A stretch of 64,000 nucleotides of DNA from Candidatus Shapirobacteria bacterium (GCA_020059745.1 JAGVBK010000004.1:306511-370510), one strand, 5' to 3'. Shown: positions 11,621 through 25,182, counted from the stretch's first letter. Made by a program: numbers and translations. The notes: generated by a model from the letters alone, not told the origin.

Positions 11621-11694
11621 TGCCCGGTCGTCTAACGGTAGGACTTCAGATTCTGGATCTGACTATTGGGGTTCGAATCCCTGCCGGGCAGCCA
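11621..11694 (+). tRNA. tRNA-Gln (anticodon CTG), CCA encoded
   Basis: Cloverleaf with a U1-A72 acceptor stem (UGCCCGG/CCGGGCA), an anticodon stem-loop UCAGA-UUCUGGA-UCUGA (anticodon CUG), a GGGGTTCGAATCCC T-arm, discriminator G and an encoded CCA. Confidence 0.8.
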
Positions 11695-11785: not shown

Positions 11786-12364
11786 TTGCCCTCAAAAATC
11801 CTCCGTTCGAATCTCTACTTTGGTGTGTTTATAGGATATAATTATCCATATATGGTTAAAAAATTCTCTGTAGGGTACGTTGTTATTATTGGAGCCCTTC
11901 TTGTTCTCGGAATTGCTGGTTTTTTCTGGCTTAACAAGCCAAATGAAGAAAATTTTAAGGCTCCGGGAAGAGATTGGAATTCACCTAAAAAGGTTGAGGA
12001 TTACTTTATTGAAAGATTAAGGATGACGCCCCAGGAAGCCTCTGAAATCAGATCAAAGCCAGGAGTTGACGGAACAGTTGATTTAAGAATAAGCACCAAT
12101 GTTACCCTGGAAGGACTTGTCGGAAATCTTTATTATTACGGTTTTGTACGAGATGAAGACACTCTCCGGTACGCTTTAGAAAATACTCAAGATACTACTC
12201 CGAGTGAAAATGCAATAAAAGCTGGCAAAAGCGGAACGATTGATACGAATGCTGAATACAGAATTTCTGAAGATATGACAACCTGGGAGATTGCAGATAT
12301 TTTATTAAATAAGCCATCCGGTCATTTTAGTTATGATGAGTACGGCTATTTCTTTATGCCTTAG
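11786..12364 (+). CDS. Hypothetical membrane-anchored protein, possibly a YceG/MltG-like N-terminal domain
   Basis: TM helix (VVIIGALLVLGIAGFFWL) followed by ~140 aa. Weak resemblance to the MltG N-terminal region. The real start is probably the internal ATG (MVKKFS…). Confidence 0.3.
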   Translation: MPSKILRSNLYFGVFIGYNYPYMVKKFSVGYVVIIGALLVLGIAGFFWLNKPNEENFKAPGRDWNSPKKVEDYFIERLRMTPQEASEIRSKPGVDGTVDLRISTNVTLEGLVGNLYYYGFVRDEDTLRYALENTQDTTPSENAIKAGKSGTIDTNAEYRISEDMTTWEIADILLNKPSGHFSYDEYGYFFMP

Positions 12365-12893
12365 TCTTTTTGGAATTTTCTGGGGGTTCGTTTCCAGAAA
12401 ATCTTTTAACATAGTCGATCCATGTTTTTTTAGATGGAACTATTTCTTTGTGGAGCATGCCAATAGTTTCCATTCCGCACATAAATAGCTGCCCTAAGGC
12501 CTCATCGTAAGAGTGGTTTTTAAAATCTGAATTTAACGGTTCTTTAAAGTTTAACCAATTATGAACTACTGAATTTCTCTCTTTTCGGTATTTGTGTAGT
12601 TGTAATTTCAGGTTTTTACTAATAACTTTTGCCTTGAATAAATAATCTATAACAGATGCAAAAGATCCCTCCTTGGGGTTTTTAAGAATCTTGTTATATT
12701 TTTCTGGCTGTTTTGAAACATTGCAATAAATAAAATAGCCTAAAAAAGTTAGCCCCTCAATTAATGACACTAACTCAAAGTTAGCTCCAGTCTTTGACTC
12801 GAGAAAAAGTTTTCTAAATGTTGTAGGAGTATAGTCTCTATAAGGGACGCCTCCTTTATCATTAATTTTTATCGAAAAGTTATATTGATTCAT
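12354..12893 (-). CDS. HEPN-like protein (Rx4H motif)
   Basis: 179-aa ORF. Contains RNSVVH (R-x4-H), the signature of HEPN RNase domains, near a predicted helical core. Divergent from the R-M/OLD operon. Confidence 0.4.
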   Translation of the reverse strand: MNQYNFSIKINDKGGVPYRDYTPTTFRKLFLESKTGANFELVSLIEGLTFLGYFIYCNVSKQPEKYNKILKNPKEGSFASVIDYLFKAKVISKNLKLQLHKYRKERNSVVHNWLNFKEPLNSDFKNHSYDEALGQLFMCGMETIGMLHKEIVPSKKTWIDYVKRFSGNEPPENSKKTKA

Positions 12894-13169
12894 AATATAA
12901 GGAAATTATATATCAAACGCTTTATTCGAGAGGAGCTCCGCAGACCTCTTTATTATGAATGTAAAGTTGTTTCCCGAACACTTTAGTGATTTCTCTTTTT
13001 TCTTCATCCGTGCCGTTTCTTAGAATGTGTTGGGCAAATATTAATAGCTAGAGACAAGAAGGATTTAAGGGACTGGTATTTAAGTTGAGATTTTTTTCTG
13101 AATTTCAGCGAGATTTTTAACTTCTATGTTCTTCCAATTTTGCCTCAAAAGTGCTAGGATTTAAGTCAT

Positions 13170-14873
13170 ATGGCACAAGATTATAGCAATTGGACCAAAG
13201 AGGATCTAATTGAAGAAATGAAGCGCTTAAGAAAGCGTAAAAAATACGGTTTAGTTTGGGAAGATAAGCCAGAAGATGTAGTTGAGCAATGCAAAAAAGA
13301 ACTTCCAGTTCTAGAAGAAGTTAAAGATAAAGAAATTTCCACAGATTCAGATAAACCAGTCAATTTGTTAATAGAGGGCGACAACTTCCATGCGCTTTCT
13401 GTATTGAACTACACTCACAAAAATAAAATTGATCTCATTTATATAGATCCTCCTTATAATACGGGCGCAAGAGATTGGAAGTACAACAACGACTATGTCG
13501 ACATAAACGATGTTTTTCGACACAGTAAATGGATTTCAATGATGAGCAATAGGCTCAAAATTGCAAAAAATCTACTGAAAAGAGATGGTGTTTTAATCTG
13601 CACAATTGATAAAAATGAAAATGCAACATTACTCCTATTACTTGAGGAACTTTTTCCTGCATATGACGTAACAACAGTTGTTATAGAACATAATCCAAAG
13701 GGTTTACCTAGTAGCAATTTTTCCTATTCACACGAATACGCTCACTTTGTTATTCCCAAAGGGTTGTCAGTTATTGGTAAAAACCCTGCGACGAAAGAAG
13801 ATACAAGAAATTTAAGAAGGGCGGGGCGAGCATCATATAGAACAGAACGTCCTACTATGTTTTATCCAATATATATTAAAGATGGGAAAGTGAAGCGGAT
13901 CGGCCCCATTCCTGAAGCATCATTCCATCCTGGGAAACGATCAATTTTGAAAGATAATGGAGAAATCGAGATTTGGCCGATTGATGATAGAGGAAAAGAA
14001 AGAAGATGGCATTTCGGGTTAGATTCAATTGAAGATCATATTGAGAGAATAGGAGTAAAAGAGAAAAACGGCGACTATCAACTCTATGTAACCGCTGTTC
14101 CTGCTAGATATAAGACTGTTTGGACTGGTGGAGATTTGGATGCTGGTAAATATGGCACATCACTTGTGAAAGAGATTATTGGGAAAGAATTTCCTTTCCC
14201 AAAGTCACTATATGCAACCGCAAAATGTTTAGAAACTGTTGTATACAAAAAAGAAAATGCAACAATTTTAGATTTTTTTGCAGGATCAGGAACTACTGGC
14301 CATGCAGTCATGATGATGAATCAACAGTATGGAGGGAGCAGAAATTTTATTTTATGCACAAATAATGAACTTAACGGCCAAGAAAAGGAATTAAGGGAAA
14401 AAGGATTGACTGAGCAAGAAATTCAGGAGTATGGAATTTGTCGTGCAGTTACGTACCCCAGAATAAGGAAAGTTATTGAGGGTTATAACAATACTAAGGG
14501 AATAAAAGCTAATCTTAAATATTTTATAACCTCTTTTGTTCCAGCAGATCCAACAGATAAAAATAAGATCGAATTAACCAAAAAAGCAACAGAGATGTTA
14601 TGTATTAAAGAAGATACCTTTGAGGAAGCTGAATTCAAAGAAAAGTTTAAGATATTTAGAAATAAAAACCACTATACGGGAATTATTTTCGATCATCAGG
14701 CTATAGACGACTTCAAAAGGGCCATTAAAGATATTGATGGCAGGTTTAGTGTATATGTATTCTCATTGGGTGATGATACTTTTGATGACGAGTTCGCAGA
14801 CATTAAAAATAAAGTTAAGTTATCGCCTATTCCTGAAGCAATATTGAGGGTTTATAGAAGAATATTTAAGTAA
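13170..14873 (+). CDS. mod: Type III restriction-modification system methyltransferase (Mod); beta-class N6-adenine/N4-cytosine MTase
   Basis: Motif IV DPPY (IYIDPPYNTG) precedes motif I (FFAGSGTTGHAV), i.e. the beta-class order typical of Type III Mod. 567 aa with a central variable (TRD) region. Followed by a Res gene. Confidence 0.85.
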   Translation: MAQDYSNWTKEDLIEEMKRLRKRKKYGLVWEDKPEDVVEQCKKELPVLEEVKDKEISTDSDKPVNLLIEGDNFHALSVLNYTHKNKIDLIYIDPPYNTGARDWKYNNDYVDINDVFRHSKWISMMSNRLKIAKNLLKRDGVLICTIDKNENATLLLLLEELFPAYDVTTVVIEHNPKGLPSSNFSYSHEYAHFVIPKGLSVIGKNPATKEDTRNLRRAGRASYRTERPTMFYPIYIKDGKVKRIGPIPEASFHPGKRSILKDNGEIEIWPIDDRGKERRWHFGLDSIEDHIERIGVKEKNGDYQLYVTAVPARYKTVWTGGDLDAGKYGTSLVKEIIGKEFPFPKSLYATAKCLETVVYKKENATILDFFAGSGTTGHAVMMMNQQYGGSRNFILCTNNELNGQEKELREKGLTEQEIQEYGICRAVTYPRIRKVIEGYNNTKGIKANLKYFITSFVPADPTDKNKIELTKKATEMLCIKEDTFEEAEFKEKFKIFRNKNHYTGIIFDHQAIDDFKRAIKDIDGRFSVYVFSLGDDTFDDEFADIKNKVKLSPIPEAILRVYRRIFK

Positions 14874-14879
14874 ATTTTT

Positions 14880-15521
14880 ATGAAAAAGAAAAAACAAACG
14901 ATAAGCAAGGAATTGAGGATGCCTCATATATATCGAGAGGATTTGGAAAAGATAGAAAATCTTATTTTAAATGAACTAAAGCCGAGAGAGTATAAAATTG
15001 AAACCAATGAATATGAGTATGAAAAGGTAGAACAATTGCAAAAAGACTTGGGAACAGCGGTAGACTTGCATGTCCAAACTTATACTCCCTACTTGAGTAT
15101 AGATTTTAATAAAAATAGTGCCAGAGTATATTCTGGCGATGACGATTTAAAAACCATGGGAGCATTTGATCAAATATTCTCAATTCTGTCTAAGAAAGAG
15201 AGAAGGGTTTTGTATTATCTATCGAAAGTTTCCGTATGGGTTGCTCCAATATTATTTTTTGCTCCTATCCGTGCGCTTGCGGAAATTGACAAAGTCGATA
15301 ACCCGAAACTTTGGGTAGTACTCGGTGTTGTACTAGTAAGCGCACTCTGGTGGGTTATCGGTTTTTACTCATCTCTTTATAAATTCTCAATAATCGATTT
15401 CACTTATTTAAAAGAGAAGCCAAACTTTATTGTACGCAATAAGGATCAAATTATTCTCGTGGTTATTGGAGCAATAATAGGGGCTATTGCAACAATTGTT
15501 TTTAATAAGATACTTTTTTAA
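14880..15521 (+). CDS. Hypothetical membrane protein inserted between mod and res
   Basis: 213-aa ORF. Hydrophilic N-terminal ~110 aa, then 2-3 predicted TM helices (VWVAPILFFAPI…, LWVVLGVVLVSALWWVIGF…, IILVVIGAIIGAIATIVF). Lies 6 bp after mod and 3 bp before res. Confidence 0.5.
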   Translation: MKKKKQTISKELRMPHIYREDLEKIENLILNELKPREYKIETNEYEYEKVEQLQKDLGTAVDLHVQTYTPYLSIDFNKNSARVYSGDDDLKTMGAFDQIFSILSKKERRVLYYLSKVSVWVAPILFFAPIRALAEIDKVDNPKLWVVLGVVLVSALWWVIGFYSSLYKFSIIDFTYLKEKPNFIVRNKDQIILVVIGAIIGAIATIVFNKILF

Positions 15522-15524
15522 GCT

Positions 15525-17750
15525 ATGCAATTAAAAGACTACCAACACACAGCTATTAAAAAACTATTAGCCAGAAGCAAAGAGCTTTTGGCCCAAAGTG
15601 GCGAGAAAAAAATCATTTTCAAAGCCCCTACAGGATCAGGCAAGACAATCATGATGGCCGAGTTTTTGAAACAGATGGTTGATGACTCTGAGATAAAAAC
15701 TCCGCTGTCTTTTATCTGGACGGCTCCCCGAAAACTACATACTCAAAGCAAGGAAAAGTTGGTTAGGTATTTTGACACTACCAGGGCTATCGAGTGTTCA
15801 GATTTTGAGGAATTAACTGATAAGCAGATCGGTGAGAATGAGATTTTATTTTTGAATTGGGAGAGTATCAACAAAAAAGACAAAAATACCATTGTCAAAG
15901 AGAATGAGAAAGAGTTTTATTTAGGCAAAATTATCGAAAACACCAAAGACGAGGACCGAGAGGTTGTGTTGGTTATTGATGAAAGTCACCATCACGCCAC
16001 TAGTGAAATATCCCACAGCCTTATAACGGATATTGGGCCGAGATTAACCATAGAAGTGTCAGCAACACCAGTTATTCAAGATCCCGATGAGATTGTATCC
16101 GTGCCACTTGAGGATGTCAAGATGGAGGGAATGATAAAGAAATCTGTCTTACTAAACCCGAATTTCAAAAATGTTCTTTCTGGCGACAATGTTACCTCTG
16201 CTCTAGCCGACGGGACCGACATGATGGTGCTTGAGGAAGCATTGAAGAAACGTACAGAATTGGTAAAAGCATATCAAGATGCGGGGATTAACGTTAACCC
16301 ATTACTGCTCATTCAACTTCCAGATAGAAAAACACAGCAAGAGGATTTAATAAAAGACGAGATCATCCGACACCTAAAAGACAAACACGGAATGACGACT
16401 GAAAACGGACGTCTGGCAATATACCTATCTGAGGAAAAAGAAAATCTTGAGAACATATCGAAAAATGATCAGGAAACCGAAGTGCTTATTTTCAAACAAG
16501 CGATTGCTCTGGGTTGGGATTGCCCTCGTGCGCAGATATTAGTGCTATTTAGGGATTGGAAGAGTTTAACATTCTCAGTGCAAACTGTTGGCCGAATTAT
16601 GCGCATGCCCGAGCCAGACATGGGTCACTATGAAAACGAAATTCTCAATTTTGGATATGTCTACACTAATTTAACCAATATCGAAATTAAAGAAGATATG
16701 GCTAGAAGCTATGTCACCATCTACACCAGCAAGAGGATTGATAGCTACAAACCATTGGAACTTACCTCTGTGTATCGTTTGCGACATCGCGAGAAAACAC
16801 GCTTAAGTCCGTTGTTTATTCGTCTATTCCTAGAGGAAGCCAAAGAGTACAAGCTAGAAGAAAAAATTGAAACCAAAGGGCAAAAACTAGAGTTGACGTT
16901 TATATCTGATTATCAGGCTGGTGGTGTGGATCAATTAATTAATGCAGAAATCCGGGGAGAAGCCAAGATTGATACGGAAAACGAAACTGATCTGCAAAAG
17001 CTGTACGATTTCTTCGTTAGAAACAACCTCACCCCTTTTTATCCAGAGGATCGTTCTATTGGTAGGGTTAAAGAGGCCATCTACTACTTTTTCAAAGAAC
17101 AGTTAAAGATGGATTACGGCAAGTATTTTGCCGAGATCATTAATATTGTTCTTAGCGAGAAAAACAGGCAACATTTCGTCAATGTCATTGATAAAACTAA
17201 AGAGCGGTATATTGCCGAAACCCAAAAGCGAGAGGCTAAACTACAACAATTATCGGATTGGGAGGTGCCACAACAGCTCAACTACGGCGGGGATTATGTT
17301 GCTCTTAAAGTCGGCCGATCGGTAATGACTCCTTTTTATTATGACAACCGCTGGAAAACAGAGGAAGCATTTATCAAGTTTTTAGAACAATCAAACCAGA
17401 TTGAATGGTGGTTTAAGAATGGAGATAGAGATTCAACATTCTTTGCCGTGCCGTATATGGAAAATGGCAATCAAAATCCTTTTTATGTTGACTTTATTGT
17501 TAAGTTTAAGAACGGCACGATAGGGTTATATGACACCAAAGGTGGCAGAACAATTAAGGATGCTAAAGAGAAAAGTGATGGGTTACAAGATTACATTGGG
17601 GCACAAAATAAAAAGGGTAAAAAAATGGTTGGCGGGATTGTGGCGAATACTAACTCAAGGGACTACTCGGGTAGATGGGTTTGTTACAAGGGCCAGAGCA
17701 GCGATCTTGTGCTAGATAATTTCTCTAACTGGGAAACGTTGGAATTATAA
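15525..17750 (+). CDS. res: Type III restriction enzyme Res subunit (SF2 helicase-like ATPase + C-terminal endonuclease)
   Basis: Walker A (KAPTGSGKT) and a DEAH-like box (LVIDESHHH). C-terminal nuclease-like motif (…VKFKNGTIGLYDTKGG…). 741 aa. Confidence 0.85.
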   Translation: MQLKDYQHTAIKKLLARSKELLAQSGEKKIIFKAPTGSGKTIMMAEFLKQMVDDSEIKTPLSFIWTAPRKLHTQSKEKLVRYFDTTRAIECSDFEELTDKQIGENEILFLNWESINKKDKNTIVKENEKEFYLGKIIENTKDEDREVVLVIDESHHHATSEISHSLITDIGPRLTIEVSATPVIQDPDEIVSVPLEDVKMEGMIKKSVLLNPNFKNVLSGDNVTSALADGTDMMVLEEALKKRTELVKAYQDAGINVNPLLLIQLPDRKTQQEDLIKDEIIRHLKDKHGMTTENGRLAIYLSEEKENLENISKNDQETEVLIFKQAIALGWDCPRAQILVLFRDWKSLTFSVQTVGRIMRMPEPDMGHYENEILNFGYVYTNLTNIEIKEDMARSYVTIYTSKRIDSYKPLELTSVYRLRHREKTRLSPLFIRLFLEEAKEYKLEEKIETKGQKLELTFISDYQAGGVDQLINAEIRGEAKIDTENETDLQKLYDFFVRNNLTPFYPEDRSIGRVKEAIYYFFKEQLKMDYGKYFAEIINIVLSEKNRQHFVNVIDKTKERYIAETQKREAKLQQLSDWEVPQQLNYGGDYVALKVGRSVMTPFYYDNRWKTEEAFIKFLEQSNQIEWWFKNGDRDSTFFAVPYMENGNQNPFYVDFIVKFKNGTIGLYDTKGGRTIKDAKEKSDGLQDYIGAQNKKGKKMVGGIVANTNSRDYSGRWVCYKGQSSDLVLDNFSNWETLEL

Positions 17751-17756
17751 GAATCT

Positions 17757-19559
17757 ATGAAAATCAATAAACTAATTCTGGACAATTTTAGAAATTTCCA
17801 GGATAAGATTGCTGTTGATTTTAATAGCCTTACAGTTGTTATTGGGAAAAACGATTTAGGTAAATCTACTATTCTCGAGGCATTGGATATATTTATCAAT
17901 GAAGGCTCCTCTTTAGTCAAGCTTGATAAAGATGACGCGTGTAAAAGATCTCAATCAGATGAATTTTCGATAGGCGTTGTTTTTTCAGAGTATCCTGAAA
18001 GAGTTGATATTGACGAAGGCAACCAAACTTCTTTGGAAGATGAGTATCTATTAAACCGAGACAGTTTATTGGAAATTCATAAGCATTATAAAAATGGAAA
18101 ATGTACTGGTGTTTATATTCACGCATTGCACCCTACTACTGAAGAAGCAAAAGATCTATTACTAAAAAAGCAGCAAGAGTTAAAGAAAATCGTTGAAGAT
18201 AATGGCTACGCTTGTGACAACAAAACAAAAAATGCCTCTTTACGTAAAGTCATACGAGAAGGTGTTGGAGATTTAAAGTTAGAAGAAATTGATATACCTG
18301 TTAACGAAGAAGATGCTAAAAGGATATGGGGAAAACTACAAACTTATTTGCCAGTATATGCATTGTTCCAGTCCGATAGAGCAAATAAAGATGAGGATCG
18401 AGAAGTCCAAGATCCGATGAAATTAGCGATAAAAGAAATATTACAAAAGGAAGATTTGCAGGAAAAACTAAGAGGTATAGCTAATGAAGTTGAAGAGATT
18501 TCTAAAGAGATTGCACACAAGACGCTTGAAAAATTGGCCGAAATGAACCCTGATATTGCTAGAGAGCTTAAACCAGTTATTCCTCCATGCTCTGACTTAA
18601 AATGGGATTCTGTTTTTAAGAATATTGAGATATCAAGCGATGATGGTGTGCCGCTAAATAAACGTGGAAGCGGTGTTAGAAGGTTAGTTTTGTTAAACTT
18701 TTTTAGAGCAAGAGCGGAAGAACAAAGGAATCTAGACTCAAAATCAAATGTAGTGTATGCAATCGAGGAGCCAGAAACATCACAACACCCCAACCATCAA
18801 AAGATACTTATCAAAGCACTGAAAGATTTGGCCGATCAAGAAGGAAGACAAATTTTTATAACGACACATAGTCCTTCGTTAGTTCAATTGTTACCAAAAG
18901 ATTGTGTGCGCTTGTTATGCAAGAAAGACGGAAATCTTGAAATTATTAGTGGAGACTTGGCAATTTCAGACATAATAGACGATTTGGGTGTTCTTCCAAT
19001 AATCGGTAAGGTTGCAGTCTTTGTTGAAGGAGAAACTGACAGAGAGTTTCTGCTAAATATCGGTGCAATAAACGAGTTAAAACAAATTATTGATATTAGT
19101 AAGATCTCAATAATACCGCTTGGTGGAAGCACGCTTGAAAGATGGATAAATAGAAACTATTTAGACGGATCAAATATTGTTGAATTTCATCTATATGACA
19201 AAGACAGTGATGAAAAGTACAAAGAAGCAGTAAGCAAGATCAACGAAAGAGCCGACAACTCAAAAGGGCAGTTAACGAAATCGCTAGAAATTGAAAATTA
19301 TATTCATCCCTCGCTCGTTGAAGGATGTGATAGGCTTTCTAGTATTTCATGCACTTCGATAAAAAGCCAGTGGAAGAATAAAGACATACCTCAATTTGTC
19401 TCGCAAAAAACTGGGATTGACGAATTGGTAGTAAAAGAAATTCTTTGTTGCTCTCTATCAAAGAAGATGAATAAGCAATTGATGGAGGAGATTAACATTT
19501 GGGATGAGGTTGAAGGTTGGTTTGAAAGTGTTAAGAGTATGACTGAGCAAACAAGATAA
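17757..19559 (+). CDS. OLD-family ATP-dependent endonuclease (ABC-type ATPase + Toprim)
   Basis: Walker A GKNDLGKST. OLD-type Walker B/D-loop (VVYAIEEPETSQHP). C-terminal Toprim (VFVEGETDREFL … YDKDSDEKY, giving E…DxD). 600 aa. Confidence 0.85.
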   Translation: MKINKLILDNFRNFQDKIAVDFNSLTVVIGKNDLGKSTILEALDIFINEGSSLVKLDKDDACKRSQSDEFSIGVVFSEYPERVDIDEGNQTSLEDEYLLNRDSLLEIHKHYKNGKCTGVYIHALHPTTEEAKDLLLKKQQELKKIVEDNGYACDNKTKNASLRKVIREGVGDLKLEEIDIPVNEEDAKRIWGKLQTYLPVYALFQSDRANKDEDREVQDPMKLAIKEILQKEDLQEKLRGIANEVEEISKEIAHKTLEKLAEMNPDIARELKPVIPPCSDLKWDSVFKNIEISSDDGVPLNKRGSGVRRLVLLNFFRARAEEQRNLDSKSNVVYAIEEPETSQHPNHQKILIKALKDLADQEGRQIFITTHSPSLVQLLPKDCVRLLCKKDGNLEIISGDLAISDIIDDLGVLPIIGKVAVFVEGETDREFLLNIGAINELKQIIDISKISIIPLGGSTLERWINRNYLDGSNIVEFHLYDKDSDEKYKEAVSKINERADNSKGQLTKSLEIENYIHPSLVEGCDRLSSISCTSIKSQWKNKDIPQFVSQKTGIDELVVKEILCCSLSKKMNKQLMEEINIWDEVEGWFESVKSMTEQTR

Positions 19560-19562
19560 CTT

Positions 19563-20330
19563 ATGAGTCAATATTACAATCCAAACAGAACAAGAAATAT
19601 TTATGATCCAAAATCTAGCGAGTTGTTTCGCCTGAGTCGTGGAAAGATAGACAATTTCATTACGTGCCCACGTTGTTTTTATCTTGACCGGAAACTGGGA
19701 ATTGCTCAGCCTCCCGGATATCCTTTTTCTCTTAATTCCGCTGTCGATAAACTTCTCAAAAAAGAACTTGATATTCACCGAGCAAAGGGGACACCACATC
19801 CTTTAATGAAAACTTACGGTGTCGATGCAATTCCTTTAACTCACGAAAAAATTGAAGAATGGCGGGATTCGCTAAGGGGAGGGATTACTTTCAGGATAGA
19901 AGGAAGTAATGTCGTGGTAACCGGCGGAGTTGATGATATGTGGATTAATCCCCAGAGTGAATATATTGTTGTTGACTATAAAGCAACTTCCAAAGAAGAG
20001 GAAGTAACTTTAGATGCCGACTGGCAGATTGGCTATAAAAGGCAAATGGAAATTTACCAGTGGCTTTTCAGAAAGAACGGTTTTGCGGTTTCTTCGACTG
20101 GTTATTTTGTTTATTGCAATGGCAATACAGATAAGGAAGCCTTTGATGGAAAGTTGGAATTTGATATTAAGATTATTCCCTATTTAGGAGATGATTCTTG
20201 GGTTGAAAATACCATTCATGATGCAATTGATTGCTTAAACAGTAATGAGATTCCGGCTCCTGGGGCAGATTGTGATTACTGCCGGTATGTAGAAGCGGTT
20301 AGAAAAATTGATGAGGTTGCTTATGCTTAA
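19563..20330 (+). CDS. Cas4-like PD-(D/E)xK nuclease with a 4-Cys (Fe-S) cluster
   Basis: N-terminal CPRCFYL motif (as in Cas4/AddB), D…(IVVDYK) PD-(D/E)xK core, a QMEIYQWL (QxxxY) motif and a C-terminal CDYC pair. 255 aa. Begins 3 bp after the OLD gene. Confidence 0.65.
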   Translation: MSQYYNPNRTRNIYDPKSSELFRLSRGKIDNFITCPRCFYLDRKLGIAQPPGYPFSLNSAVDKLLKKELDIHRAKGTPHPLMKTYGVDAIPLTHEKIEEWRDSLRGGITFRIEGSNVVVTGGVDDMWINPQSEYIVVDYKATSKEEEVTLDADWQIGYKRQMEIYQWLFRKNGFAVSSTGYFVYCNGNTDKEAFDGKLEFDIKIIPYLGDDSWVENTIHDAIDCLNSNEIPAPGADCDYCRYVEAVRKIDEVAYA

Positions 20331-20709
20331 AAAAATTGAAACTGCCGATGAGTTTATTAAGAGGAAAACTGATGAGTTTTCTAAAAATAAATTAATTGAA
20401 ATAAAAGATATCGGTCGAAGCGGAAAACATTTTTTAGCTCGTGAAGCTTGGACTTTTATGCCACAAGGGAATTTGGGTGATAAAGTGTTTGTTATCGAAA
20501 GGTTTAGAAAAGAATCAACTGAAGGAAAAATTGCGTACACAGATTCCTGGAAGAAAGGAGATATTGAGTACCGCATCGGATATTTCATTATTGGGAAAAT
20601 TGGTAAAGCGGCTGGAAGATGGGTCTGGGGACAATATTGCCCTTTGATTCCTCATGAAGATTTAGATAAATTATTATCCAAAGCAAGGCAAGAAGGAACA
20701 CTTCTTTAA
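20323..20709 (+). CDS. Hypothetical small protein, last gene of the R-M/OLD/Cas4-like operon
   Basis: ~129-aa ORF overlapping the Cas4-like stop by 8 bp (ATG at 20323; the ORF track used an upstream TTG). No recognisable motif. Confidence 0.45.
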   Translation: MLKKIETADEFIKRKTDEFSKNKLIEIKDIGRSGKHFLAREAWTFMPQGNLGDKVFVIERFRKESTEGKIAYTDSWKKGDIEYRIGYFIIGKIGKAAGRWVWGQYCPLIPHEDLDKLLSKARQEGTLL

Positions 20710-20821
20710 ATTAAACGATTTTCGTATTTAGATAAAGAATCGAAATGAAAACAAAAAATTCTTTGAAAAACACCATGGAAGTGGGCGGTTAGTATGGGTT
20801 TATAGTACAATGACAAAATAG

Positions 20822-21745
20822 ATGAAAGAGTTACAGATTGTTTATTCGAATAATTATCTTAAATACGATCTTGGAGAAGACAATCCCATTTCCCGGGATA
20901 AAACTGGAAAGTTTTTACGATTTCTTAAAGAAGAAGGAAGCATTCCCTTCCGGGTGCATGAGGCACCGAAAGCAACCGATAGCGACATTCTTCTTGCCCA
21001 CACAGAAAGGTACTTAAACAGAGTAAGGCAGGCTGCGATAAATGGAGTCGAACTCGATCCTGATACTCCGGTTAACTTGGAAACATTAGAAGGAGCATAT
21101 TATATTGTTGGAGGAACAATTCTCTGCCTTAGTTTGGCTCTTGAAGACCAACGAGTAGTCAATATTATTGGAGGAATGCACCACTCTGGCTCATATTTCG
21201 GATCAGGATTCTGCATTTTTAACGATCATGCCATTGCTATTAGAAAGCTCCAGAAAGAAGGAAAAATTGAAAAAGTAACAGTGTATGATTTAGATGTACA
21301 TGCAGGACAGGGAACCCAAGAAATTTTTTATGAAGATCCTACGGTTTTGACCGTCTCTATCCATCAAGATCCCAATACTCTCTATCCGGGAACCGGGTTT
21401 GATTGGCAGAGAGGAAGAGGAGCTGGGCTGGGAATGAACATTAATATCCCGCTTCCCCCTGGAACTACCGAAGAAATATATCTTGAAGCTTTGGATTCAG
21501 TCTTGGAACAAACCAGAAGTTATACCTCTGATATGAGAGTTTTACTTTTGGGTGTCGATACTTATAAGGGAGATTTACTAGGCGGTTTCCGGCTAGAACA
21601 AGAAAGTTTTAGAAAAATTGGGGAAAGATTCCGTGATTTTCATAAATTAGCTGTTCTTTTCGGTGGCGGTTATTCAAGAAAAATTCCTGACTTGTGGATG
21701 AAATTTTTAGAAGGATACTTAGGAGTTCCTTCTCATATCGTCTGA
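20822..21745 (+). CDS. Histone deacetylase-family (arginase/deacetylase fold) protein
   Basis: HDAC motifs GGMHHSGSYFGSGFCIFND and DLDVHAGQGTQ (Zn ligands D-H-D). 307 aa. Confidence 0.8.
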   Translation: MKELQIVYSNNYLKYDLGEDNPISRDKTGKFLRFLKEEGSIPFRVHEAPKATDSDILLAHTERYLNRVRQAAINGVELDPDTPVNLETLEGAYYIVGGTILCLSLALEDQRVVNIIGGMHHSGSYFGSGFCIFNDHAIAIRKLQKEGKIEKVTVYDLDVHAGQGTQEIFYEDPTVLTVSIHQDPNTLYPGTGFDWQRGRGAGLGMNINIPLPPGTTEEIYLEALDSVLEQTRSYTSDMRVLLLGVDTYKGDLLGGFRLEQESFRKIGERFRDFHKLAVLFGGGYSRKIPDLWMKFLEGYLGVPSHIV

Positions 21746-22288
21746 CACGAGTTTTCTTATTTCTTCGGCTTTACTACTTTTATTCTGTTTTGCCTTTAAC
21801 TTGAGGTATTCATCTAACTCTCTTTCGATTTCTAAATTAAATCTGACGGTGGATTTATTTAACTCAACCCATTTGAGGAAATCCTCTATTATTTTTTTTA
21901 AATTTGTCTTTTTATATTTTTGTTTCTTTAAATATTTATAATAATTTGAACTAATAAAGAAATCGCTTAAGGGAGAATCTTCTACTTTATCCGAATCTTT
22001 AATTAAAAGTAACGTTGGAATATTCTTTTGAAGAGATAGAACTAGCTGCTGGCCGACTGCGGAGATATTATGCGAATATTCAAGAATTACCGCATCGGAT
22101 TCTTTAATGGCTTTTTCTGTCAGTTCATACATTTTGCTGACAGTTATTTCCTTATTACCTTTTATTTCTTCGTCAATCCAGTCTCTGGACAGTTTGTGTC
22201 CTAACAGGCATATTTGTTGACGTATTTTCAGATAATCTGTTTTGTTTTTTTTGAAACCCGGCAATGATCCCCCGAAAAAAACTTTCAT
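21719..22288 (-). CDS. Two-domain protein: N-terminal nucleoside 2-deoxyribosyltransferase-like (SLOG/Rossmann-like) domain fused to a C-terminal ribbon-helix-helix (CopG-like) domain
   Basis: N-terminus MKVFFGGSLPG … DAVILEYSHNISAVGQQLVLS resembles the NDT/TIR-like Rossmann motif pattern. C-terminus TVRFNLEIERELDEYLKLKAKQNKSSKAEEIRKLV is a canonical RHH beta-strand plus two helices. Confidence 0.4.
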   Translation of the reverse strand: MKVFFGGSLPGFKKNKTDYLKIRQQICLLGHKLSRDWIDEEIKGNKEITVSKMYELTEKAIKESDAVILEYSHNISAVGQQLVLSLQKNIPTLLLIKDSDKVEDSPLSDFFISSNYYKYLKKQKYKKTNLKKIIEDFLKWVELNKSTVRFNLEIERELDEYLKLKAKQNKSSKAEEIRKLVSDDMRRNS

Positions 22289-22324
22289 TGTCGGTATTAT
22301 ACATCATTTGCATTATTATAGGTA

Positions 22325-23827
22325 TTGCTGTACAATCAGTGTACATTTTCTATATTTATAAATGTGTCAATATTAAAGGTTATTGAAATCGGTTTTGGTC
22401 CTCATGCTAAAAGGATATATTTTCCTGCCCTGCAAGAATTAGGAAAAGAATTTAATGTTAGTCTTTCATTGGTTGTCGATCTTAAGCAACAAGAATTTGA
22501 TATAAGAGACTTTTTCTCTGACTATGCAGACAAACCAGATTTTCTTTTTGTTGATCCTTTTGAAGGAAATCTTCCTAAAGAGGTAGATGACTTTTTAAAT
22601 AATTATGTTGCCAAGCATAAAATTGATGGAGTAATAATTTCCACAGAACCCCTTTGCCATTATGCCTACGCTAAATGGGCTTTAAAAGTCGGTTTGAACA
22701 TCCTTATGGATAAACCAATTACCACTAAAAAAGAAGTGGTTACAGATTTATCAGCAGCAAAAAAAATTGAAAGTGATTATATGGAATTGTTAAAAGATTA
22801 TCTCAATCTCCAAGAACAAAAGGAAACTGTTTTCATAATTAACACCCAACGGCGTTTTCACCCTGGTTTTAATCTTGTTAATGAACTTCTCTCTGAGGTT
22901 GCCGTCAAGACCAATTGTCCGATTACAGCAATACAAGCCACTCATTGTGACGGGCAGTGGAGACTTCCAAACGAAATAGTAACACAACAATACCATCCAT
23001 ATTGCAGCGGATACGGAAAAGGCTCGCATAGCGGTTATCATATTTTTGATTCAGTTTATCAATTTTATAAGGTATCTAAATTAACAGCCAAAATAGCTGA
23101 TTCGATGGAAATTTTTAGTTCTTTTTTTCAGCCTAAGGGCTTCTTATTTCAATTAAATCAAAATGATTATGAAAAATATTTTGGAAAGGCATACTCAACA
23201 GTTAGAAAATATTCCGACAACAGACTATATAAGATGTTCTCTGGTTATGGTGAAATGGATCTTTCCGCTATTGTGAGGCTTAAAAGGGGAGAAGATTGCA
23301 TAGGGAATATAGCTATTAATCTAATGCATAACGGTTTTGCCCGAAGATCGTGGGTAAAGCCAGGAAAAGATCTTTATAAAGGAAACGGAAGAGTTAAACA
23401 TGAATATCACAACATAGAGCAAGGGCCATTTCAAAATATTCAGATTCACTCTTATCAATCAAAAGACAAACATGATACTAACACTAAAGATGATTATCTC
23501 CTCGGAGGCAACAGCCATTTTGATATTTATGTCTTTAGAAATAAAGACATAACGGGAGACAAAGATCCGTTAAAAATTTTTAGAATGTCAGACCTGAAAA
23601 AATATTGCCCAGAAGTGCAAGATGATAAATTGGCTATCGAAAGTGTTAAGCATCGAGTTGTCAAAGAATTCTTGAGTTGTTTGGTGGGTAAAAGGAGTAA
23701 AATCGAACTTACTTCTAATATCGATGATCATTTAATGCCCGTGCAAATAATGAGCGGTATTTATAGGTCACATAATAATTATATTAGAGGGTTGAATCCG
23801 TTGGTTAGATATAACTTAACTTTATGA
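22325..23827 (+). CDS. Gfo/Idh/MocA-family NAD(P)-dependent oxidoreductase
   Basis: N-terminal Rossmann dinucleotide-binding region (VIEIGFGPHAKRIYFPAL) and the family EKP-like motif (STEPLCHYAYAKWALKVGLNILMDKP). The true start is probably downstream of 22325 (a GTG near 22364). Confidence 0.55.
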   Translation: MLYNQCTFSIFINVSILKVIEIGFGPHAKRIYFPALQELGKEFNVSLSLVVDLKQQEFDIRDFFSDYADKPDFLFVDPFEGNLPKEVDDFLNNYVAKHKIDGVIISTEPLCHYAYAKWALKVGLNILMDKPITTKKEVVTDLSAAKKIESDYMELLKDYLNLQEQKETVFIINTQRRFHPGFNLVNELLSEVAVKTNCPITAIQATHCDGQWRLPNEIVTQQYHPYCSGYGKGSHSGYHIFDSVYQFYKVSKLTAKIADSMEIFSSFFQPKGFLFQLNQNDYEKYFGKAYSTVRKYSDNRLYKMFSGYGEMDLSAIVRLKRGEDCIGNIAINLMHNGFARRSWVKPGKDLYKGNGRVKHEYHNIEQGPFQNIQIHSYQSKDKHDTNTKDDYLLGGNSHFDIYVFRNKDITGDKDPLKIFRMSDLKKYCPEVQDDKLAIESVKHRVVKEFLSCLVGKRSKIELTSNIDDHLMPVQIMSGIYRSHNNYIRGLNPLVRYNLTL

Positions 23828-25182
23828 CAGATATTAGTGCAATAAAAGCTCTTGCTTTTGGCCTGCTTGATGGCGGCGGAGATATATTTACTAATTTTCC
23901 TGGATATCTGTCACACCAACTATTTTCGTCTCTGGGCGGAAAGAATACTTCTGTGAACGAAAAAACAGCTTATGAAATAGCTTGGGGGTCAAGTTTTGCT
24001 GGTAGAAGAAGTGCAGTAATGTTTAAAAATGTCGGATTAAATGTTGCTGCAGATCCTTTTTTGAACTCCATGCTTCTTGGTATAAATGCTGGTTTGGTAA
24101 TAATTGTTTTTGACGACGTTTATGTCGAGGGGTCTCAATCGCGGCAAGATTCAAGACACTATTTTAATTTTTTTAGGGGATTGTGGTTTGAGCCATATAA
24201 TGTTCAGAATGCTTATGATGTTGCTTATAAATCTTTTTCTCTTTCTGAAAAGTATAAAACACCGGTGATAATTAGGGTCACAAATCCACTTATCAATATG
24301 TCGAGTGATTTAAAAAGAAAGAAAAAGCAGAAAAAGAGTAATAAGCCTGTCTATGATCATAGAAAATTTGTTGTGCACCCTACAAACTATCTTTATCAAA
24401 GAAAAACGCTACTTAAGAAGAATGACAGAATTCAAAAGTATATTAATGGCCTATACAAGAATGTGTTTGTCGAAACAAAGGATAATTTATTTGTCTTCGG
24501 TTGTTGTGTAAATGAACAAAAAAAATACTTAAAAGATAACTATGGCAGAGTACAGTTCTTTACTTATCCTCTTCCTCAAAAGACTACTAATTTAATTAAA
24601 AAGTCGAAGAATTTAATTGTTTTAGAACAAGGCGATGATTTTGCTTGTCGTGAAGTTGGAAATTTGACGAAAAATTTGCTGTTAGGAAATAATACTGGCT
24701 CAATGCCGGATATGTCGAAAAATTATATTGTTTCTAAAAACTATGAGAAGTTATTTTCTGCAGTTAAAGCTATTCGGCCTACTTTTGTTATTGGTGACTT
24801 GGGTGAATATACCAAAGACACTTACGGAACGATAGATGCCTGCCTTTGCTTAGGTTCAAGTATTGGAGTTGCAACCGGTTGTGCTTTAGCTGGATATCAA
24901 AAGTCGTTGGTAATAACTGGAGATGGTGCTTATTTACATTCAGGCAAAAACGCATTAATGGAATCAATAGAAAGGAAAATTACGCTAAAAATTGTTGTTC
25001 TCTGCAATGGGGGATGTAGAGTAACTGGGGGTCAAAAAATTCCGGGGGATTTGTTTGATCAACCAAAGGAAGTTAGGGTTTTTAAACTTAACTATGATAA
25101 GACAACGACTGCTGTTTTCAAGGAAACTTTAAAAAAAATGATTGATTCAAAGTTTACCACCATATTATATGTTTTGATGTAA
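23824..25182 (+). CDS. Thiamine-diphosphate-dependent enzyme (Pyr + PP domains)
   Basis: C-terminal ThDP-binding motif GDGAYLHSGKNALMESIERKITLKIVVLCNGG (GDG…NG). N-terminal Pyr-domain-like region. 452 aa. Confidence 0.5.
   Translation: MTDISAIKALAFGLLDGGGDIFTNFPGYLSHQLFSSLGGKNTSVNEKTAYEIAWGSSFAGRRSAVMFKNVGLNVAADPFLNSMLLGINAGLVIIVFDDVYVEGSQSRQDSRHYFNFFRGLWFEPYNVQNAYDVAYKSFSLSEKYKTPVIIRVTNPLINMSSDLKRKKKQKKSNKPVYDHRKFVVHPTNYLYQRKTLLKKNDRIQKYINGLYKNVFVETKDNLFVFGCCVNEQKKYLKDNYGRVQFFTYPLPQKTTNLIKKSKNLIVLEQGDDFACREVGNLTKNLLLGNNTGSMPDMSKNYIVSKNYEKLFSAVKAIRPTFVIGDLGEYTKDTYGTIDACLCLGSSIGVATGCALAGYQKSLVITGDGAYLHSGKNALMESIERKITLKIVVLCNGGCRVTGGQKIPGDLFDQPKEVRVFKLNYDKTTTAVFKETLKKMIDSKFTTILYVLM

What the first reader, a model, noticed from the sequence alone, without database searches (positions are those of the whole stretch)
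13170..20709. Single six-gene operon fusing a Type III R-M system to an OLD-family nuclease, a Cas4-like nuclease and two unknown proteins
All six genes lie on the same strand with near-zero spacing: mod, a 213-aa membrane ORF, res, OLD ATPase-Toprim, a Cas4-like 4-Cys PD-(D/E)xK nuclease, and a 133-aa ORF. The gaps are 6, 3, 6 and 3 bp, followed by an 8-bp overlap. This implies co-transcription and probably translational coupling. Type III R-M systems are normally a two-gene mod-res unit, and OLD-family nucleases are normally stand-alone or paired with UvrD-like helicases. A physically integrated R-M + OLD + Cas4-like cassette is not a described architecture. It suggests a layered or cooperative defence module: R-M cleavage could feed an OLD/Cas4 DNA-end-processing step, or the OLD module could act as a backup when restriction is inhibited.
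Basis: partly seen in the sequence, partly recalled or inferred. Interest (0 to 1): 0.9.

Follow-up and report, generated by a model that had tools for sequence, protein, structure and literature searches.

The report
Mosaic Type III–OLD defence island
Six tightly packed genes in a tiny-genome (CPR) bacterium are a real restriction-modification system with an OLD nuclease attached, but the 'Cas4-like' gene and the last small gene each occur widely without the other five genes, so this is a mosaic island and not a new six-gene machine.

Summary
Six co-directional ORFs (13170-20709) have gaps of 6, 3, 6 and 3 bp and an 8-bp overlap. Profile searches confirm Type III Mod and Res, an OLD ABC-ATPase/Toprim nuclease, a 4-Cys Cas4/RecB-like nuclease, a 3-TM membrane protein and a small ORF.

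The "integrated six-gene system" reading is only partly supported.
- Only mod-res-OLD recurs as a block. It is found in two related contigs, where it is cargo of a serine-recombinase element. A relic of that recombinase lies just upstream of mod in the window.
- The Cas4-like gene has hundreds of CPR homologues at 63-81% identity. In 16 of 78 loci unrelated defence cassettes (Type I, III, ISP, GmrSD, OLD) run into its 5' end.
- The 128-aa gene is conserved in Microgenomates in unrelated contexts.
- The 213-aa gene sits between mod and res in one other lineage but is absent from the two closest cassettes.
- Relatives of this OLD are repeatedly embedded in Type I, Type III, BREX and helicase/methylase operons. 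This theme is already described in the literature.

Tight spacing is the norm in this genome (19 of 39 same-strand junctions are ≤10 bp).

Verdict: a mosaic defence island, a new variant of known kinds, of moderate interest.

The parts
11621..11694 (+). tRNA-Gln(CTG). It is the left landmark of the low-GC island.
   Evidence: ARAGORN. In L002 a tRNA-Gln lies at the recombinase end of the homologous element. GC falls from about 0.40 to 0.33-0.37 from about 12 kb.
11786..12893 (.). Two ORFs of unknown function: 192 aa (+, 11786-12364) and 179 aa (-, 12354-12893). They lie between the tRNA and the cassette. Whether they belong to the island is uncertain.
   Evidence: no Pfam hit. There is one weak NCBIfam hit (TetA(P)-like, 7e-4) and one weak PADLOC hit (PDC-S06, 2e-4).
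12934..13038 (-). Relic of the 3' end of a large serine recombinase gene, equivalent to residues 403-437 of the 444-aa L002 recombinase.
   Evidence: tblastn gives 40% identity over 35 aa, E 1e-5 against the whole window and 2e-7 against the local region. Intact homologues flank the same cassette in L002 and L086.
13170..14873 (+). Type III-type Mod methyltransferase. Motif IV (DPPY) is at aa 93-96. Motif I (FAGSGTT) starts at aa 370. The variable target-recognition region lies between them.
   Evidence: PF01555 5e-23 and PADLOC MTase_III 3e-80. Motifs. Identity is 59% to L002 and 80% to L086, while Res is 91% and 78%.
14880..15521 (+). 213-aa membrane protein embedded between mod and res. It has an N-terminal alpha/beta domain (about aa 1-105) and three TM helices. 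Function is unknown.
15525..17750 (+). Type III-type Res. It has an SF2 helicase (GSGKT at aa 37, DESH at aa 152, QTVGR at aa 353) and a C-terminal PD-(D/E)xK motif (D656 ... D670-T-K672).
   Evidence: ResIII 1e-20, REase_III 1.5e-16, NF046055 C-terminal match 1.7e-11. Motifs.
17757..19559 (+). OLD-family nuclease with an ABC ATPase and a Toprim domain. By sequence it is closest to Class 1.
   Evidence: AAA_15 1e-82, PADLOC Old 3e-25 and GajA about 1e-24. Invariant K36/S37, E337/E338, E424, D428, D481, D483, E511, E513. Best solved relative is T. scotoductus OLD 6P74, 3e-17.
19563..20330 (+). Cas4/RecB-like 4-Cys PD-(D/E)xK nuclease. It is very widespread and conserved in CPR. It is most likely a resident gene at the right edge of the island and not cargo.
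   Evidence: PDDEXK_1 3.5e-12. At least 564 matches in species genomes at 63-81% identity. 8000 of 8000 candidates matched. Invariant catalytic and Cys residues. Fold matches to AdnAB, Cas4, RecE and Exo5 at TM 0.35-0.43. Neighbourhood survey.
20323..20709 (+). 128-aa gene (133 aa from TTG 20308) of unknown function. It is conserved in Microgenomates and is an independent gene.
   Evidence: 279 homologues, the best 120 of which are 55-86% identical. Contexts L166 and L167 lack PD, OLD, mod and res.

Best explanation
**What it is.** The region is a compact, mosaic defence island in a Candidatus Microgenomates (CPR) chromosome. It is not a single six-component system.

**The cargo.**
- The cargo is a Type III-type restriction-modification unit (Mod plus Res) with an OLD-family ATPase-Toprim nuclease directly downstream.
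- The three genes most likely arrived together as the payload of a large-serine-recombinase integrative element.
- That element has since decayed. Only a 35-codon relic of the recombinase remains upstream of mod.

**The other three genes.**
- A 213-aa membrane protein sits between mod and res in this lineage and in one other. It is an optional embedded accessory or passenger.
- The island abuts a Cas4/RecB-like nuclease gene that is conserved across CPR. It probably works in DNA-end processing or repair. Many unrelated defence cassettes have landed on its 5' side.
- A further resident 128-aa gene follows.

**How it probably works (inferred, not shown).**
- All six genes are probably read from one promoter upstream of mod.
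- Mod methylates host sites, and Mod-Res cuts unmodified invading DNA.
- OLD acts as an autonomous second-line nuclease. By analogy with P2 Old, PARIS and embedded ABC-ATPase/Toprim systems, it may be triggered when restriction or recombination functions are blocked by phage anti-defence proteins.
For: **Shown: identities and layout.**

**Shown: source.** The source is a Microgenomates MAG.

**Shown: mod-res-OLD is the only recurring block.**
- L002: Res 91%, OLD 83%, Mod 59%.
- L086: Mod 80%, Res 78%, OLD 81%.
- Both are preceded by HTH_17 and a serine recombinase, and both lack the 213-aa gene.

**Shown: mobile-element signature.**
- The same recombinase-HTH_17 backbone carries different cargo in L004.
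- A recombinase relic lies at 12934-13038 in the window.
- tRNA-Gln lies at the recombinase end in both the window and L002.

**Shown: OLD is separable and promiscuous.**
- It stands alone at 74%, 53% and 45% identity.
- It is adjacent to R-M or BREX components in at least 16 of 84 loci: Type III 5, Type I 4, BREX 4, PLD-SNF2/Eco57I 3.

**Shown: the Cas4-like gene looks like a resident gene.**
- There are at least 564 matches in species genomes, with identity tracking taxonomy.
- Its neighbours are housekeeping genes in many loci.
- Defence domains are present in the two genes upstream but absent from the 25 most frequent families of the two genes downstream.
- Labelled defence families occur upstream in 16 of 78 loci and downstream in 2 of 78.

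**Shown: the 128-aa gene is independent**.

**Inferred: co-transcription.** This rests on spacing and on the lack of + strand terminators.

**Inferred: the OLD backup role.** This rests on published analogues (PMC9122126; 10.1101/2024.01.29.577857; PMC12839542; PMC10568477).
Against: - No expression or activity data exist for any of these genes.
- In both loci that extend past OLD, the Cas4-like gene follows OLD with a 3-bp gap.
- In 16 of 78 CPR loci a defence gene runs into the Cas4-like gene on the same strand, mostly within -8 to +14 bp. This is also what a functional partnership would look like.
- PF12705 Cas4-like nucleases are known partners of Type III loci (PMC5704561).
- The island's right boundary is not mapped. 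No att repeats were found.
- In L017 the recombinase and tRNA-Gln lie on the other side of the Cas4-like gene.
- The 213-aa gene recurs between an orthologous mod and res in L170-L172. It may therefore be a true component and not a passenger.
- dS is saturated, so the relative ages of the genes could not be resolved.
Confidence: 0.6

Rival explanations
1. The Cas4/RecB-like nuclease is a shared functional partner. It would be a common 3'-terminal end-processing or effector nuclease, co-translated with whatever helicase, ATPase or restriction cassette lies upstream. On this reading, mod-res-OLD-Cas4-like is a real four-gene unit, analogous to Type III plus UvrD-Cas4 loci.
For: - Defence genes of many types end -8 to +14 bp from its start codon, on the same strand, in most of the 16 cassette-bearing loci out of 78. 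Only 2 of 78 loci have labelled defence genes downstream.
- OLD-type genes of a different subfamily (25-31% identical) sit immediately upstream of it in L009, L012, L027, L031 and L038, and one gene further upstream in L020.
- L017 has Mod-Res-UvrD followed by this gene. This mirrors the published UvrD-Cas4-like fusions next to Type III Mod-Res (PMC5704561).
- Both the window and L002 keep a 3-bp OLD-to-nuclease junction.
Against: - About four-fifths of the loci show no recognisable defence gene upstream. Several lineages have conserved housekeeping synteny around it, such as glycosyltransferases and SecDF.
- Its 63-81% identity across CPR classes is far higher than that of any of the upstream defence genes.
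- The upstream cassettes are mechanistically unrelated (Type I, III, ISP, Type IV GmrSD, Schlafen).
- 24 of 54 same-strand upstream junctions at this gene are 10 bp or less whatever the neighbour, so tight junctions are the genomic norm.
Confidence: 0.2
2. One reading: one integrated six-gene cooperative machine. R-M cleavage feeds an OLD/Cas4 end-processing step, and the two unknown proteins are dedicated subunits.
For: The six genes are co-directional and near-contiguous, with no internal + strand terminator-like sites. All four enzymes keep intact catalytic motifs.
Against: - No other locus among about 170 examined has all six genes.
- The 213-aa gene is absent from the two closest cassettes.
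- The 128-aa gene is never linked to the others elsewhere.
- OLD occurs alone at 74% identity.
- The L170 orthologous Mod-213-Res has DUF2130 in place of OLD.
- The spacing is typical of this genome.
Confidence: 0.05
3. Pure juxtaposition. R-M and OLD are unrelated neighbours in a defence island of a very compact genome, with no selection for their linkage or co-regulation.
For: - Half of the same-strand junctions in the window are 10 bp or less.
- OLD homologues are mostly (66 of 84) without labelled R-M neighbours.
- Defence genes cluster generally.
Against: - The mod-res-OLD order and the 1-6 bp junctions are kept across three contigs, although the genes have diverged to 78-91% (Res) and 81-83% (OLD).
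- The same OLD clade is found inside Type I, BREX and Type III operons, and next to PLD-SNF2/Eco57I genes, with gaps of -40 to +45 bp (most within -4 to +21 bp) in unrelated lineages.
- The literature shows that such embedding is frequent, and 96.7% of embedded genes share the orientation of the flanking system (10.1101/2024.01.29.577857).
Confidence: 0.15

Closest known systems
Type III restriction-modification systems (EcoP15I/EcoP1I type)
   Same: - The Mod is a beta-class N6/N4 methyltransferase with motif IV before motif I.
- The Res is an SF2 helicase with a C-terminal PD-(D/E)xK motif.
- mod lies upstream of res on one strand.
- The variable Mod (59-80% identity) against the conserved Res (78-91%) fits specificity switching.
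   Different: - Res is short (741 aa) and has no sequence-detectable solved relative.
- A 213-aa membrane-protein gene interrupts mod and res.
- An OLD gene follows res in the same array.
Class 1 OLD nucleases (P2 Old, Thermus scotoductus OLD, PDB 6P74)
   Same: [quoted passage not shown]
- TsOLD is the best solved match (3e-17, ahead of GajA at 1e-12).
- No UvrD partner or retron is present.
   Different: - Class 1 is defined as single genes not proximal to other defence genes (PMC10568477).
- This OLD and many of its relatives are embedded in or appended to R-M or BREX operons.
Defence genes embedded in modification-based systems (HEC-04 ATPase-Toprim in Hma, PARIS/OLD-ABC in BREX, PrrC in Type I R-M)
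   Same: - An ABC-ATPase/Toprim nuclease is co-oriented and contiguous with a methyltransferase-based system.
- The proposed logic is a second-line or anti-anti-restriction backup (10.1101/2024.01.29.577857; PMC12839542; PMC9122126).
- Relatives of this OLD sit inside Type I and BREX operons.
   Different: - Type III R-M was not among the host systems surveyed in those papers.
- Here OLD is appended after res and does not lie between core genes. The gene that is truly embedded is the uncharacterised 213-aa membrane protein.
- No trigger or activity is known.
Type III Mod-Res neighbourhoods with UvrD-Cas4-like (PF12705) fusion proteins, and solo-Cas4 of CPR (Hudaiberdiev et al. 2017, PMC5704561)
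   Same: - A PF12705 Cas4-like nuclease lies next to Type III Mod-Res.
- Solo Cas4-family genes are reported as common and vertically inherited in CPR. This matches the distribution seen here.
   Different: - The nuclease here is a stand-alone 255-aa protein, not a UvrD fusion.
- It occurs in most loci without any R-M genes.
- The partner immediately upstream is OLD, not UvrD. An unfused UvrD is seen in L017.
Gabija (GajA OLD nuclease plus GajB UvrD-like helicase)
   Same: An OLD-family ATPase-Toprim protein lies next to a helicase-containing protein. PADLOC GajA models hit at about 1e-24.
   Different: - The neighbouring helicase is an SF2 Type III Res, not an SF1 UvrD/GajB.
- TsOLD (Class 1) is a closer solved relative than GajA.
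- The best PADLOC matches are generic AAA_15 models.

Membership tests
Type III R-M | Mod subunit: a beta-class N6A/N4C DNA methyltransferase, with motif IV (DPPY) N-terminal to motif I (FxGxG) and the TRD between them. | tested here: met
   PF01555 5e-23 and PADLOC MTase_III 3e-80. DPPY at aa 93 and FAGSG at aa 370.
Type III R-M | Res subunit: SF2 helicase motifs (Walker A, DExH, motif VI). | tested here: met
   ResIII 1e-20 and REase_III 1.5e-16. GSGKT at aa 37, DESH at aa 152, QTVGR at aa 353.
Type III R-M | Res subunit: a C-terminal PD-(D/E)xK endonuclease domain. | tested here: inconclusive
   A motif D656 ... D670-T-K672 is present, and NF046055 (restriction endonuclease family) matches the C-terminus at 1.7e-11, far below that family's cut-off. 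There is no solved relative by sequence. The fold was not modelled.
Type III R-M | A two-gene mod-res operon. | tested here: not met
   A 213-aa ORF lies between mod and res, and OLD follows res. The closest relatives L002 and L086 do have adjacent mod-res.
Type III R-M | ATP-dependent cleavage of unmethylated DNA, and hemimethylation by Mod. | not testable with these tools
   This needs biochemistry or methylome data.
OLD family nuclease | An N-terminal ABC ATPase with Walker A/B and signature-like motifs. | tested here: met
   AAA_15 1e-82 over 1-376. K36/S37 and E337/E338 are invariant in 22 homologues.
OLD family nuclease | A C-terminal Toprim domain with a conserved glutamate and a DxD acidic cluster. 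| tested here: met
   The Pfam Toprim hits are weak (5e-3). However, E424, D428, D481, D483, E511 and E513 are invariant, and the profile aligns to TsOLD 6P74 through the start of the Toprim.
Class 1 OLD | A single gene not proximal to other defence genes. | tested here: not met
   It directly follows res (6-bp gap). At least 16 of 84 related loci adjoin R-M or BREX genes.
Class 2 OLD / Gabija | An adjacent UvrD/PcrA/Rep-like (GajB) helicase. | tested here: not met
   No UvrD-type protein lies in 9-25 kb of the window. The neighbour is an SF2 Res.
PARIS (Class 4) | A split AriA ATPase plus an AriB DUF4435/Toprim protein. | tested here: not met
   This is a single fused 600-aa protein. The AriA model hit covers only the generic AAA_15 region.
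Cas4 / RecB-family nuclease | PD-(D/E)xK core motifs (D, (D/E)xK, QxxxY). | tested here: met
   D124/D125, D138-Y-K140 and Q161-x3-Y165 are invariant in 34 orthologues. PDDEXK_1 3.5e-12.
Cas4 / RecB-family nuclease | Four cysteines that ligate an Fe-S cluster. | tested here: inconclusive
   C35, C38, C237 and C240 are invariant. Their pattern is 2+2 (CxxC...CxxC), not the canonical 1+3. The metal content is untestable here.
Cas4 / RecB-family nuclease | A RecB-like fold. | tested here: met
   The AF2 model (pLDDT 79) matches AdnAB, Cas4 (7MI4, 4IC1, 4R5Q), RecE and Exo5 at E 3e-6 to 1e-4. TM-scores are only 0.35-0.43.
CRISPR-associated Cas4 | Association with cas1/cas2, and reaching the family score threshold. 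| tested here: not met
   TIGR00372 scores 33.6 bits against a cut-off of 65. No cas genes lie nearby. Neighbourhoods in 78 loci lack cas genes among the top families.

The most novel reading that the evidence does not exclude
The CPR-wide Cas4/RecB-like nuclease may not be just a neighbour. It could be a universal 3'-terminal anchor of defence operons in Patescibacteria. One version is a common end-processing partner that many unrelated restriction, OLD or GmrSD cassettes are co-translated with. Another is the conserved target gene of a family of serine-recombinase defence islands, analogous to rlmH for SCC elements. In addition, the 213-aa membrane protein would be a new Type III R-M-embedded defence accessory.
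Probability: 0.2. Interest if true: 0.7.

Novelty: new variant of a known kind. Interest (0 to 1): 0.35.

Why it matters
- **A caution about operon inference.** Operon-like packing in a compact CPR genome can suggest a multi-gene "system" that comparative genomics then dissolves into independent parts.
- **Another host type for embedded nucleases.** It adds Type III R-M to the modification-based systems (Type I, BREX, Hma, DISARM) known to carry ABC-ATPase/Toprim nucleases. It also shows that one OLD clade moves between all of them. This bears on the open question of whether "Class 1" OLD proteins defend on their own or as backups.
- **An entry point to CPR defence islands.** It flags a conserved Cas4-like gene in CPR bacteria whose upstream side collects defence cassettes. 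That could be used to mine defence islands in a huge uncultured radiation.
- **A new candidate gene family.** It flags an uncharacterised family of about 210-aa membrane proteins that is sometimes embedded in R-M operons.

Tried and rejected
- **Sequence searches of PDB.** Searches with Res and with the Cas4-like protein or its profile gave nothing useful.
- **Viral contigs.** The 213-aa family was not found there.
- **dN/dS dating.** The comparison of window and L002 genes was meant to date cargo against the resident gene. dS is saturated for OLD and PD, so it is not decisive. Res alone looks younger (dS 1.3).
- **Attachment-site repeats.** None convincing were found around the island.
- **HTH_17 regulator.** No remnant was found upstream of mod in the window.
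- **tRNA-Gln as a general bracket.** It occurs near the Cas4-like gene in only 5 loci of about 81 scanned (the window, L002 and 79 of the 80 survey loci), so it is not general.
- **"One conserved flank" test.** The fractions of singleton genes upstream and downstream are similar, so this is not shown.
- **Gabija, PARIS and CRISPR-Cas4 membership.** Each was considered and rejected on a defining feature (see the membership table).

Full report
**1. Observation**

The six + strand ORFs exist as described: 13170-14873, 14880-15521, 15525-17750, 17757-19559, 19563-20330 and 20308/20323-20709. The gaps are 6, 3, 6 and 3 bp. The last gene most likely starts at ATG 20323. That start gives the 8-bp overlap ATGCTTAA and a 128-aa product. 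It matches the gene call in the source record and the length of its homologues.

No canonical Shine-Dalgarno sequences precede the internal starts. The only + strand promoter-like site inside the cassette is weak, and there is no + strand terminator-like site. Co-transcription is therefore plausible. However, 19 of 39 same-strand junctions in this window are 10 bp or less. Tight spacing is the rule in this genome and is not a special property of these genes.

The window comes from a Candidatus Microgenomates (CPR/Patescibacteria) metagenome-assembled genome.

**2. Gene identities**

- **Mod** is a Type III-type methyltransferase. It hits PF01555 at 5e-23 and PADLOC MTase_III at 3e-80. DPPY lies at aa 93, before FAGSG at aa 370.
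- **Res** carries SF2 helicase motifs: GSGKT at 37, DESH at 152 and QTVGR at 353. It also has a C-terminal D656...D670-T-K672 motif and a sub-threshold match to a restriction-endonuclease family.
- **The fourth protein** is an intact OLD-family ATPase-Toprim nuclease. It hits AAA_15 at 1e-82. K36/S37, E337/E338, E424, D428, D481-x-D483 and E511/E513 are invariant in 22 homologues. The best solved relative is Class 1 T. scotoductus OLD 6P74 at 3e-17, ahead of GajA at 1e-12.
- **The fifth protein** is a RecB/Cas4-family nuclease. It hits PDDEXK_1 at 3.5e-12. D138-Y-K140, Q161xxxY165 and four cysteines (C35, C38, C237, C240) are invariant. Its AF2 model (pLDDT 79) matches AdnAB, Cas4, RecE and Exo5, with TM-scores of only 0.35-0.43.
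- **The 213-aa protein** has an N-terminal alpha/beta domain and three transmembrane helices. Its AF2 model has pLDDT 95. It matches no family and has no informative structural neighbour.

**3. Do the six genes travel together? No.**

*OLD and the R-M genes.* Neighbourhoods of OLD homologues were fetched by exact protein look-up and by a metagenome scan. Only the two closest relatives repeat the R-M linkage.
- L002 (OLD 83%, Res 91%, Mod 59%) has HTH_17-mod-res-OLD-Cas4-like.
- L086 (OLD 81%, Res 78%, Mod 80%) has HTH_17-mod-res-OLD and is then truncated.
- Neither contains the 213-aa gene, and L002 does not have the 128-aa gene.
- A 74%-identical OLD (L003) stands alone behind an HTH_17 gene. 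Relatives at 53% and 45% are also alone.

*The 128-aa gene.* It has 279 homologues, the best 120 of which are 55-86% identical, in Microgenomates. The two long contexts examined contain none of the other five genes.

*The 213-aa gene.*
- The family is large: at least 1001 representatives at 50% clustering, almost all about 180-260 aa.
- Its closest long-contig relatives (43-45% identity, L170-L172) again lie between an orthologous Mod (47%) and Res (55%). There the downstream gene is DUF2130, not OLD.
- More distant members sit in housekeeping contexts: Bro-N/MutL, HIT and others.

**4. The Cas4-like gene behaves like a resident gene**

*Distribution.* All 8000 scored candidates were homologues, and the best 120 were 76-84% identical. 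A scan of species-representative genomes found at least 564 matches at 63-81% identity, overwhelmingly in CPR genomes where the record labels are informative. The closest are in Microgenomates-type lineages and the more distant in Parcubacteria and Saccharibacteria. This agrees with the published observation that solo Cas4-family genes are common and vertically inherited in CPR (PMC5704561).

*Neighbourhood.* In 78 usable loci its surroundings are highly variable, but there is a marked asymmetry.
- The two genes upstream include OLD-type ATPase-Toprim proteins (5-6 loci), ResIII helicases (5), GmrSD (4), HsdR and several methyltransferases.
- The 25 most frequent families among the two downstream genes are all non-defence families, such as SecDF, glycosyltransferases, HtrA-like proteases and FtsK.
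- Labelled defence families lie within four genes upstream in 16 of 78 loci and downstream in 2 of 78. The last upstream gene usually ends -8 to +14 bp from the nuclease start.
- The cassettes are unrelated to one another: Type I R-M plus GmrSD; PLD-SNF2 plus Eco57I-type methylase plus OLD; Type ISP plus PIF1 plus GmrSD; Mod-Res-UvrD; Mod-Res-SMC-like; Schlafen.

**5. Mobile-element signature**

- In L002, L086 and L004 a large serine recombinase lies on the opposite strand to an HTH_17 gene. Between them lie one to three small ORFs and, in L002 and L004 (not L086), a ParB-methyltransferase. The HTH_17 gene leads into the variable cargo. The cargo is mod-res-OLD in L002 and L086, and a PLD-SNF2 helicase plus an Eco57I-type methylase in L004.
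- The window lacks these backbone genes. However, the 276-bp "intergenic" region upstream of mod holds a 35-codon relic of the recombinase 3' end, at 12934-13038 on the - strand. It is 40% identical, with E 1e-5 against the whole window.
- A tRNA-Gln lies at the recombinase end in L002 and at 11621-11694 in the window. GC content drops from about 12 kb.
- The window cassette is therefore best read as decayed cargo of such an element.

The right boundary is not mapped. No att repeats were found. In L017 the recombinase and tRNA-Gln lie on the other side of the nuclease gene. Whether the nuclease gene marks an insertion hotspot or belongs to the islands is therefore not fully settled.

**6. OLD is a promiscuous accessory of modification-based defence**

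Among 84 loci with relatives of this OLD, at least 16 adjoin components of such systems.
- Type I: HsdM/HsdS-OLD(-HsdR), 4 loci.
- BREX: BrxC/PglX/PglZ, 4 loci.
- PLD-SNF2 helicase plus Eco57I-type methylase, 3 loci.
- Type III, 5 loci. These include a different order, OLD-Mod-Res, with an unrelated Mod/Res pair in L104, L107 and L108.

This count is a lower bound, because many contigs are short.

The theme is published.
- OLD-ABC/Toprim "backup effectors" are pervasive in BREX loci (PMC12839542).
- PARIS, a split OLD relative, is triggered by the anti-restriction protein Ocr (PMC9122126).
- P2 Old responds to loss of RecBCD function (PMC10568477).
- Type III hosts were not covered by those surveys. 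Class 1 OLD is still defined as "single genes not proximal to other defence genes" (PMC10568477). The present arrangement is therefore a new variant, not a new kind.

**7. Mechanism**

*Shown:* identities, intact motifs, gene order, and the distribution of each component.

*Inferred:*
- One transcript starts upstream of mod.
- Mod-Res acts as a classical Type III restriction barrier whose specificity changes through the variable Mod.
- OLD acts as an autonomous nuclease, co-regulated with R-M, as a second line of defence. It may be activated by phage anti-defence proteins.
- The Cas4-like nuclease is a housekeeping end-processing enzyme that happens to be read through from the island.
- The 213-aa membrane protein is either an embedded accessory (guilt by embedding) or a passenger.

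I put about 0.6 on this mosaic-island model. I put about 0.2 on the alternative that the Cas4-like nuclease is a true shared partner of the upstream cassettes. That alternative is supported by the directional, tightly joined arrangement and by the published UvrD-Cas4/Type III association (PMC5704561). I put about 0.15 on pure juxtaposition and about 0.05 on the six-gene integrated machine.

**8. Verdict**

The finding is a new variant of known kinds: Type III R-M with an appended OLD and an embedded membrane protein.

The most interesting by-products concern the neighbourhood, not the "operon" itself.
- A widely conserved Cas4-like gene in CPR genomes has a 5' side that collects defence cassettes.
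- A serine-recombinase element carries swappable defence cargo.

Interest is moderate (0.35).

Noticed in passing
L006-L085 (loci around orthologues of window 19563-20330): The 5' side of the CPR-conserved Cas4-like gene collects unrelated defence cassettes on the same strand: Type I R-M, Type ISP, GmrSD, OLD, Mod-Res-UvrD and Schlafen. This occurs in at least 16 of 78 loci, against 2 of 78 on the 3' side. It may be a defence-island hotspot or anchor gene for Patescibacteria.
   Followed up: partly
L002:1-3705, L086:3122-6045, L004:12374-16228; relic at window 12934-13038 (-): A backbone recurs with different defence cargos: a large serine recombinase, small ORF(s), a ParB-N6_N4 methyltransferase (in L002 and L004, not L086) and a divergent HTH_17 gene. 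The cargo is mod-res-OLD or PLD-SNF2 plus an Eco57I-type methylase. It looks like an integrative element with a swappable defence slot. tRNA-Gln abuts the recombinase in L002.
   Followed up: partly
L099, L130, L160, L092 (Type I); L111, L132, L144, L154 (BREX); L091, L096, L101 (PLD-SNF2/Eco57I); L104, L107, L108 (OLD-Mod-Res): Relatives (38-47% identity over the full length; the L130 match is partial) of the window's OLD are embedded in or appended to several different methylation-based defence operons, with gaps of -40 to +45 bp (most within -4 to +21 bp). This contradicts the "isolated single gene" definition of Class 1 OLD.
   Followed up: partly
L170:5631-12010 (also L171, L172): An orthologous Mod-213aa-Res cassette is followed by a DUF2130 protein in place of OLD. 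A divergent TIR_2 protein precedes it, and an ISL3 transposase lies nearby.
   Followed up: no
L017:163-10756: The order is HTH_3, HTH_17, PLD-SNF2 helicase, Mod, Res, an unfused UvrD helicase, then the Cas4-like gene. This is a split version of the published UvrD-Cas4 fusions next to Type III R-M. HtrA, a serine recombinase and tRNA-Gln follow on the far side.
   Followed up: partly
window 14880-15521 and P0361-P0510: The 213-aa protein belongs to a large family of about 210-aa membrane proteins with no annotation (at least 1001 clusters at 50% identity). The motifs MPHLFRDDLE, PYISIDF and RNKDQI are conserved, and the predicted fold is confident. It has no Pfam family.
   Followed up: partly
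window 12000-25000: GC content is lower (0.33-0.37) than in the flanks (0.39-0.43). The dip extends beyond the six genes into the HDAC-like gene (20822-21745), an oxidoreductase-like gene, a TPP-enzyme-like gene and a thymidylate-kinase-like gene.
   Followed up: no
window 14873-20330 junctions: None of the internal start codons is preceded by a recognisable Shine-Dalgarno sequence (for example TAAATTTTTATG and TAAGCTATG). This suggests re-initiation or coupling, or SD-independent initiation in this lineage.
   Followed up: no
L003:5324-11362: The stand-alone 74%-identical OLD in L003 sits next to a dense array of 11 tRNA genes.
   Followed up: no
L177:1-2735: A CPR contig encodes a 1071-aa UvrD-PDDEXK_1 fusion (AddA/AdnB-like). 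Some CPR genomes therefore carry both a helicase-nuclease and the stand-alone Cas4-like gene family.
   Followed up: no
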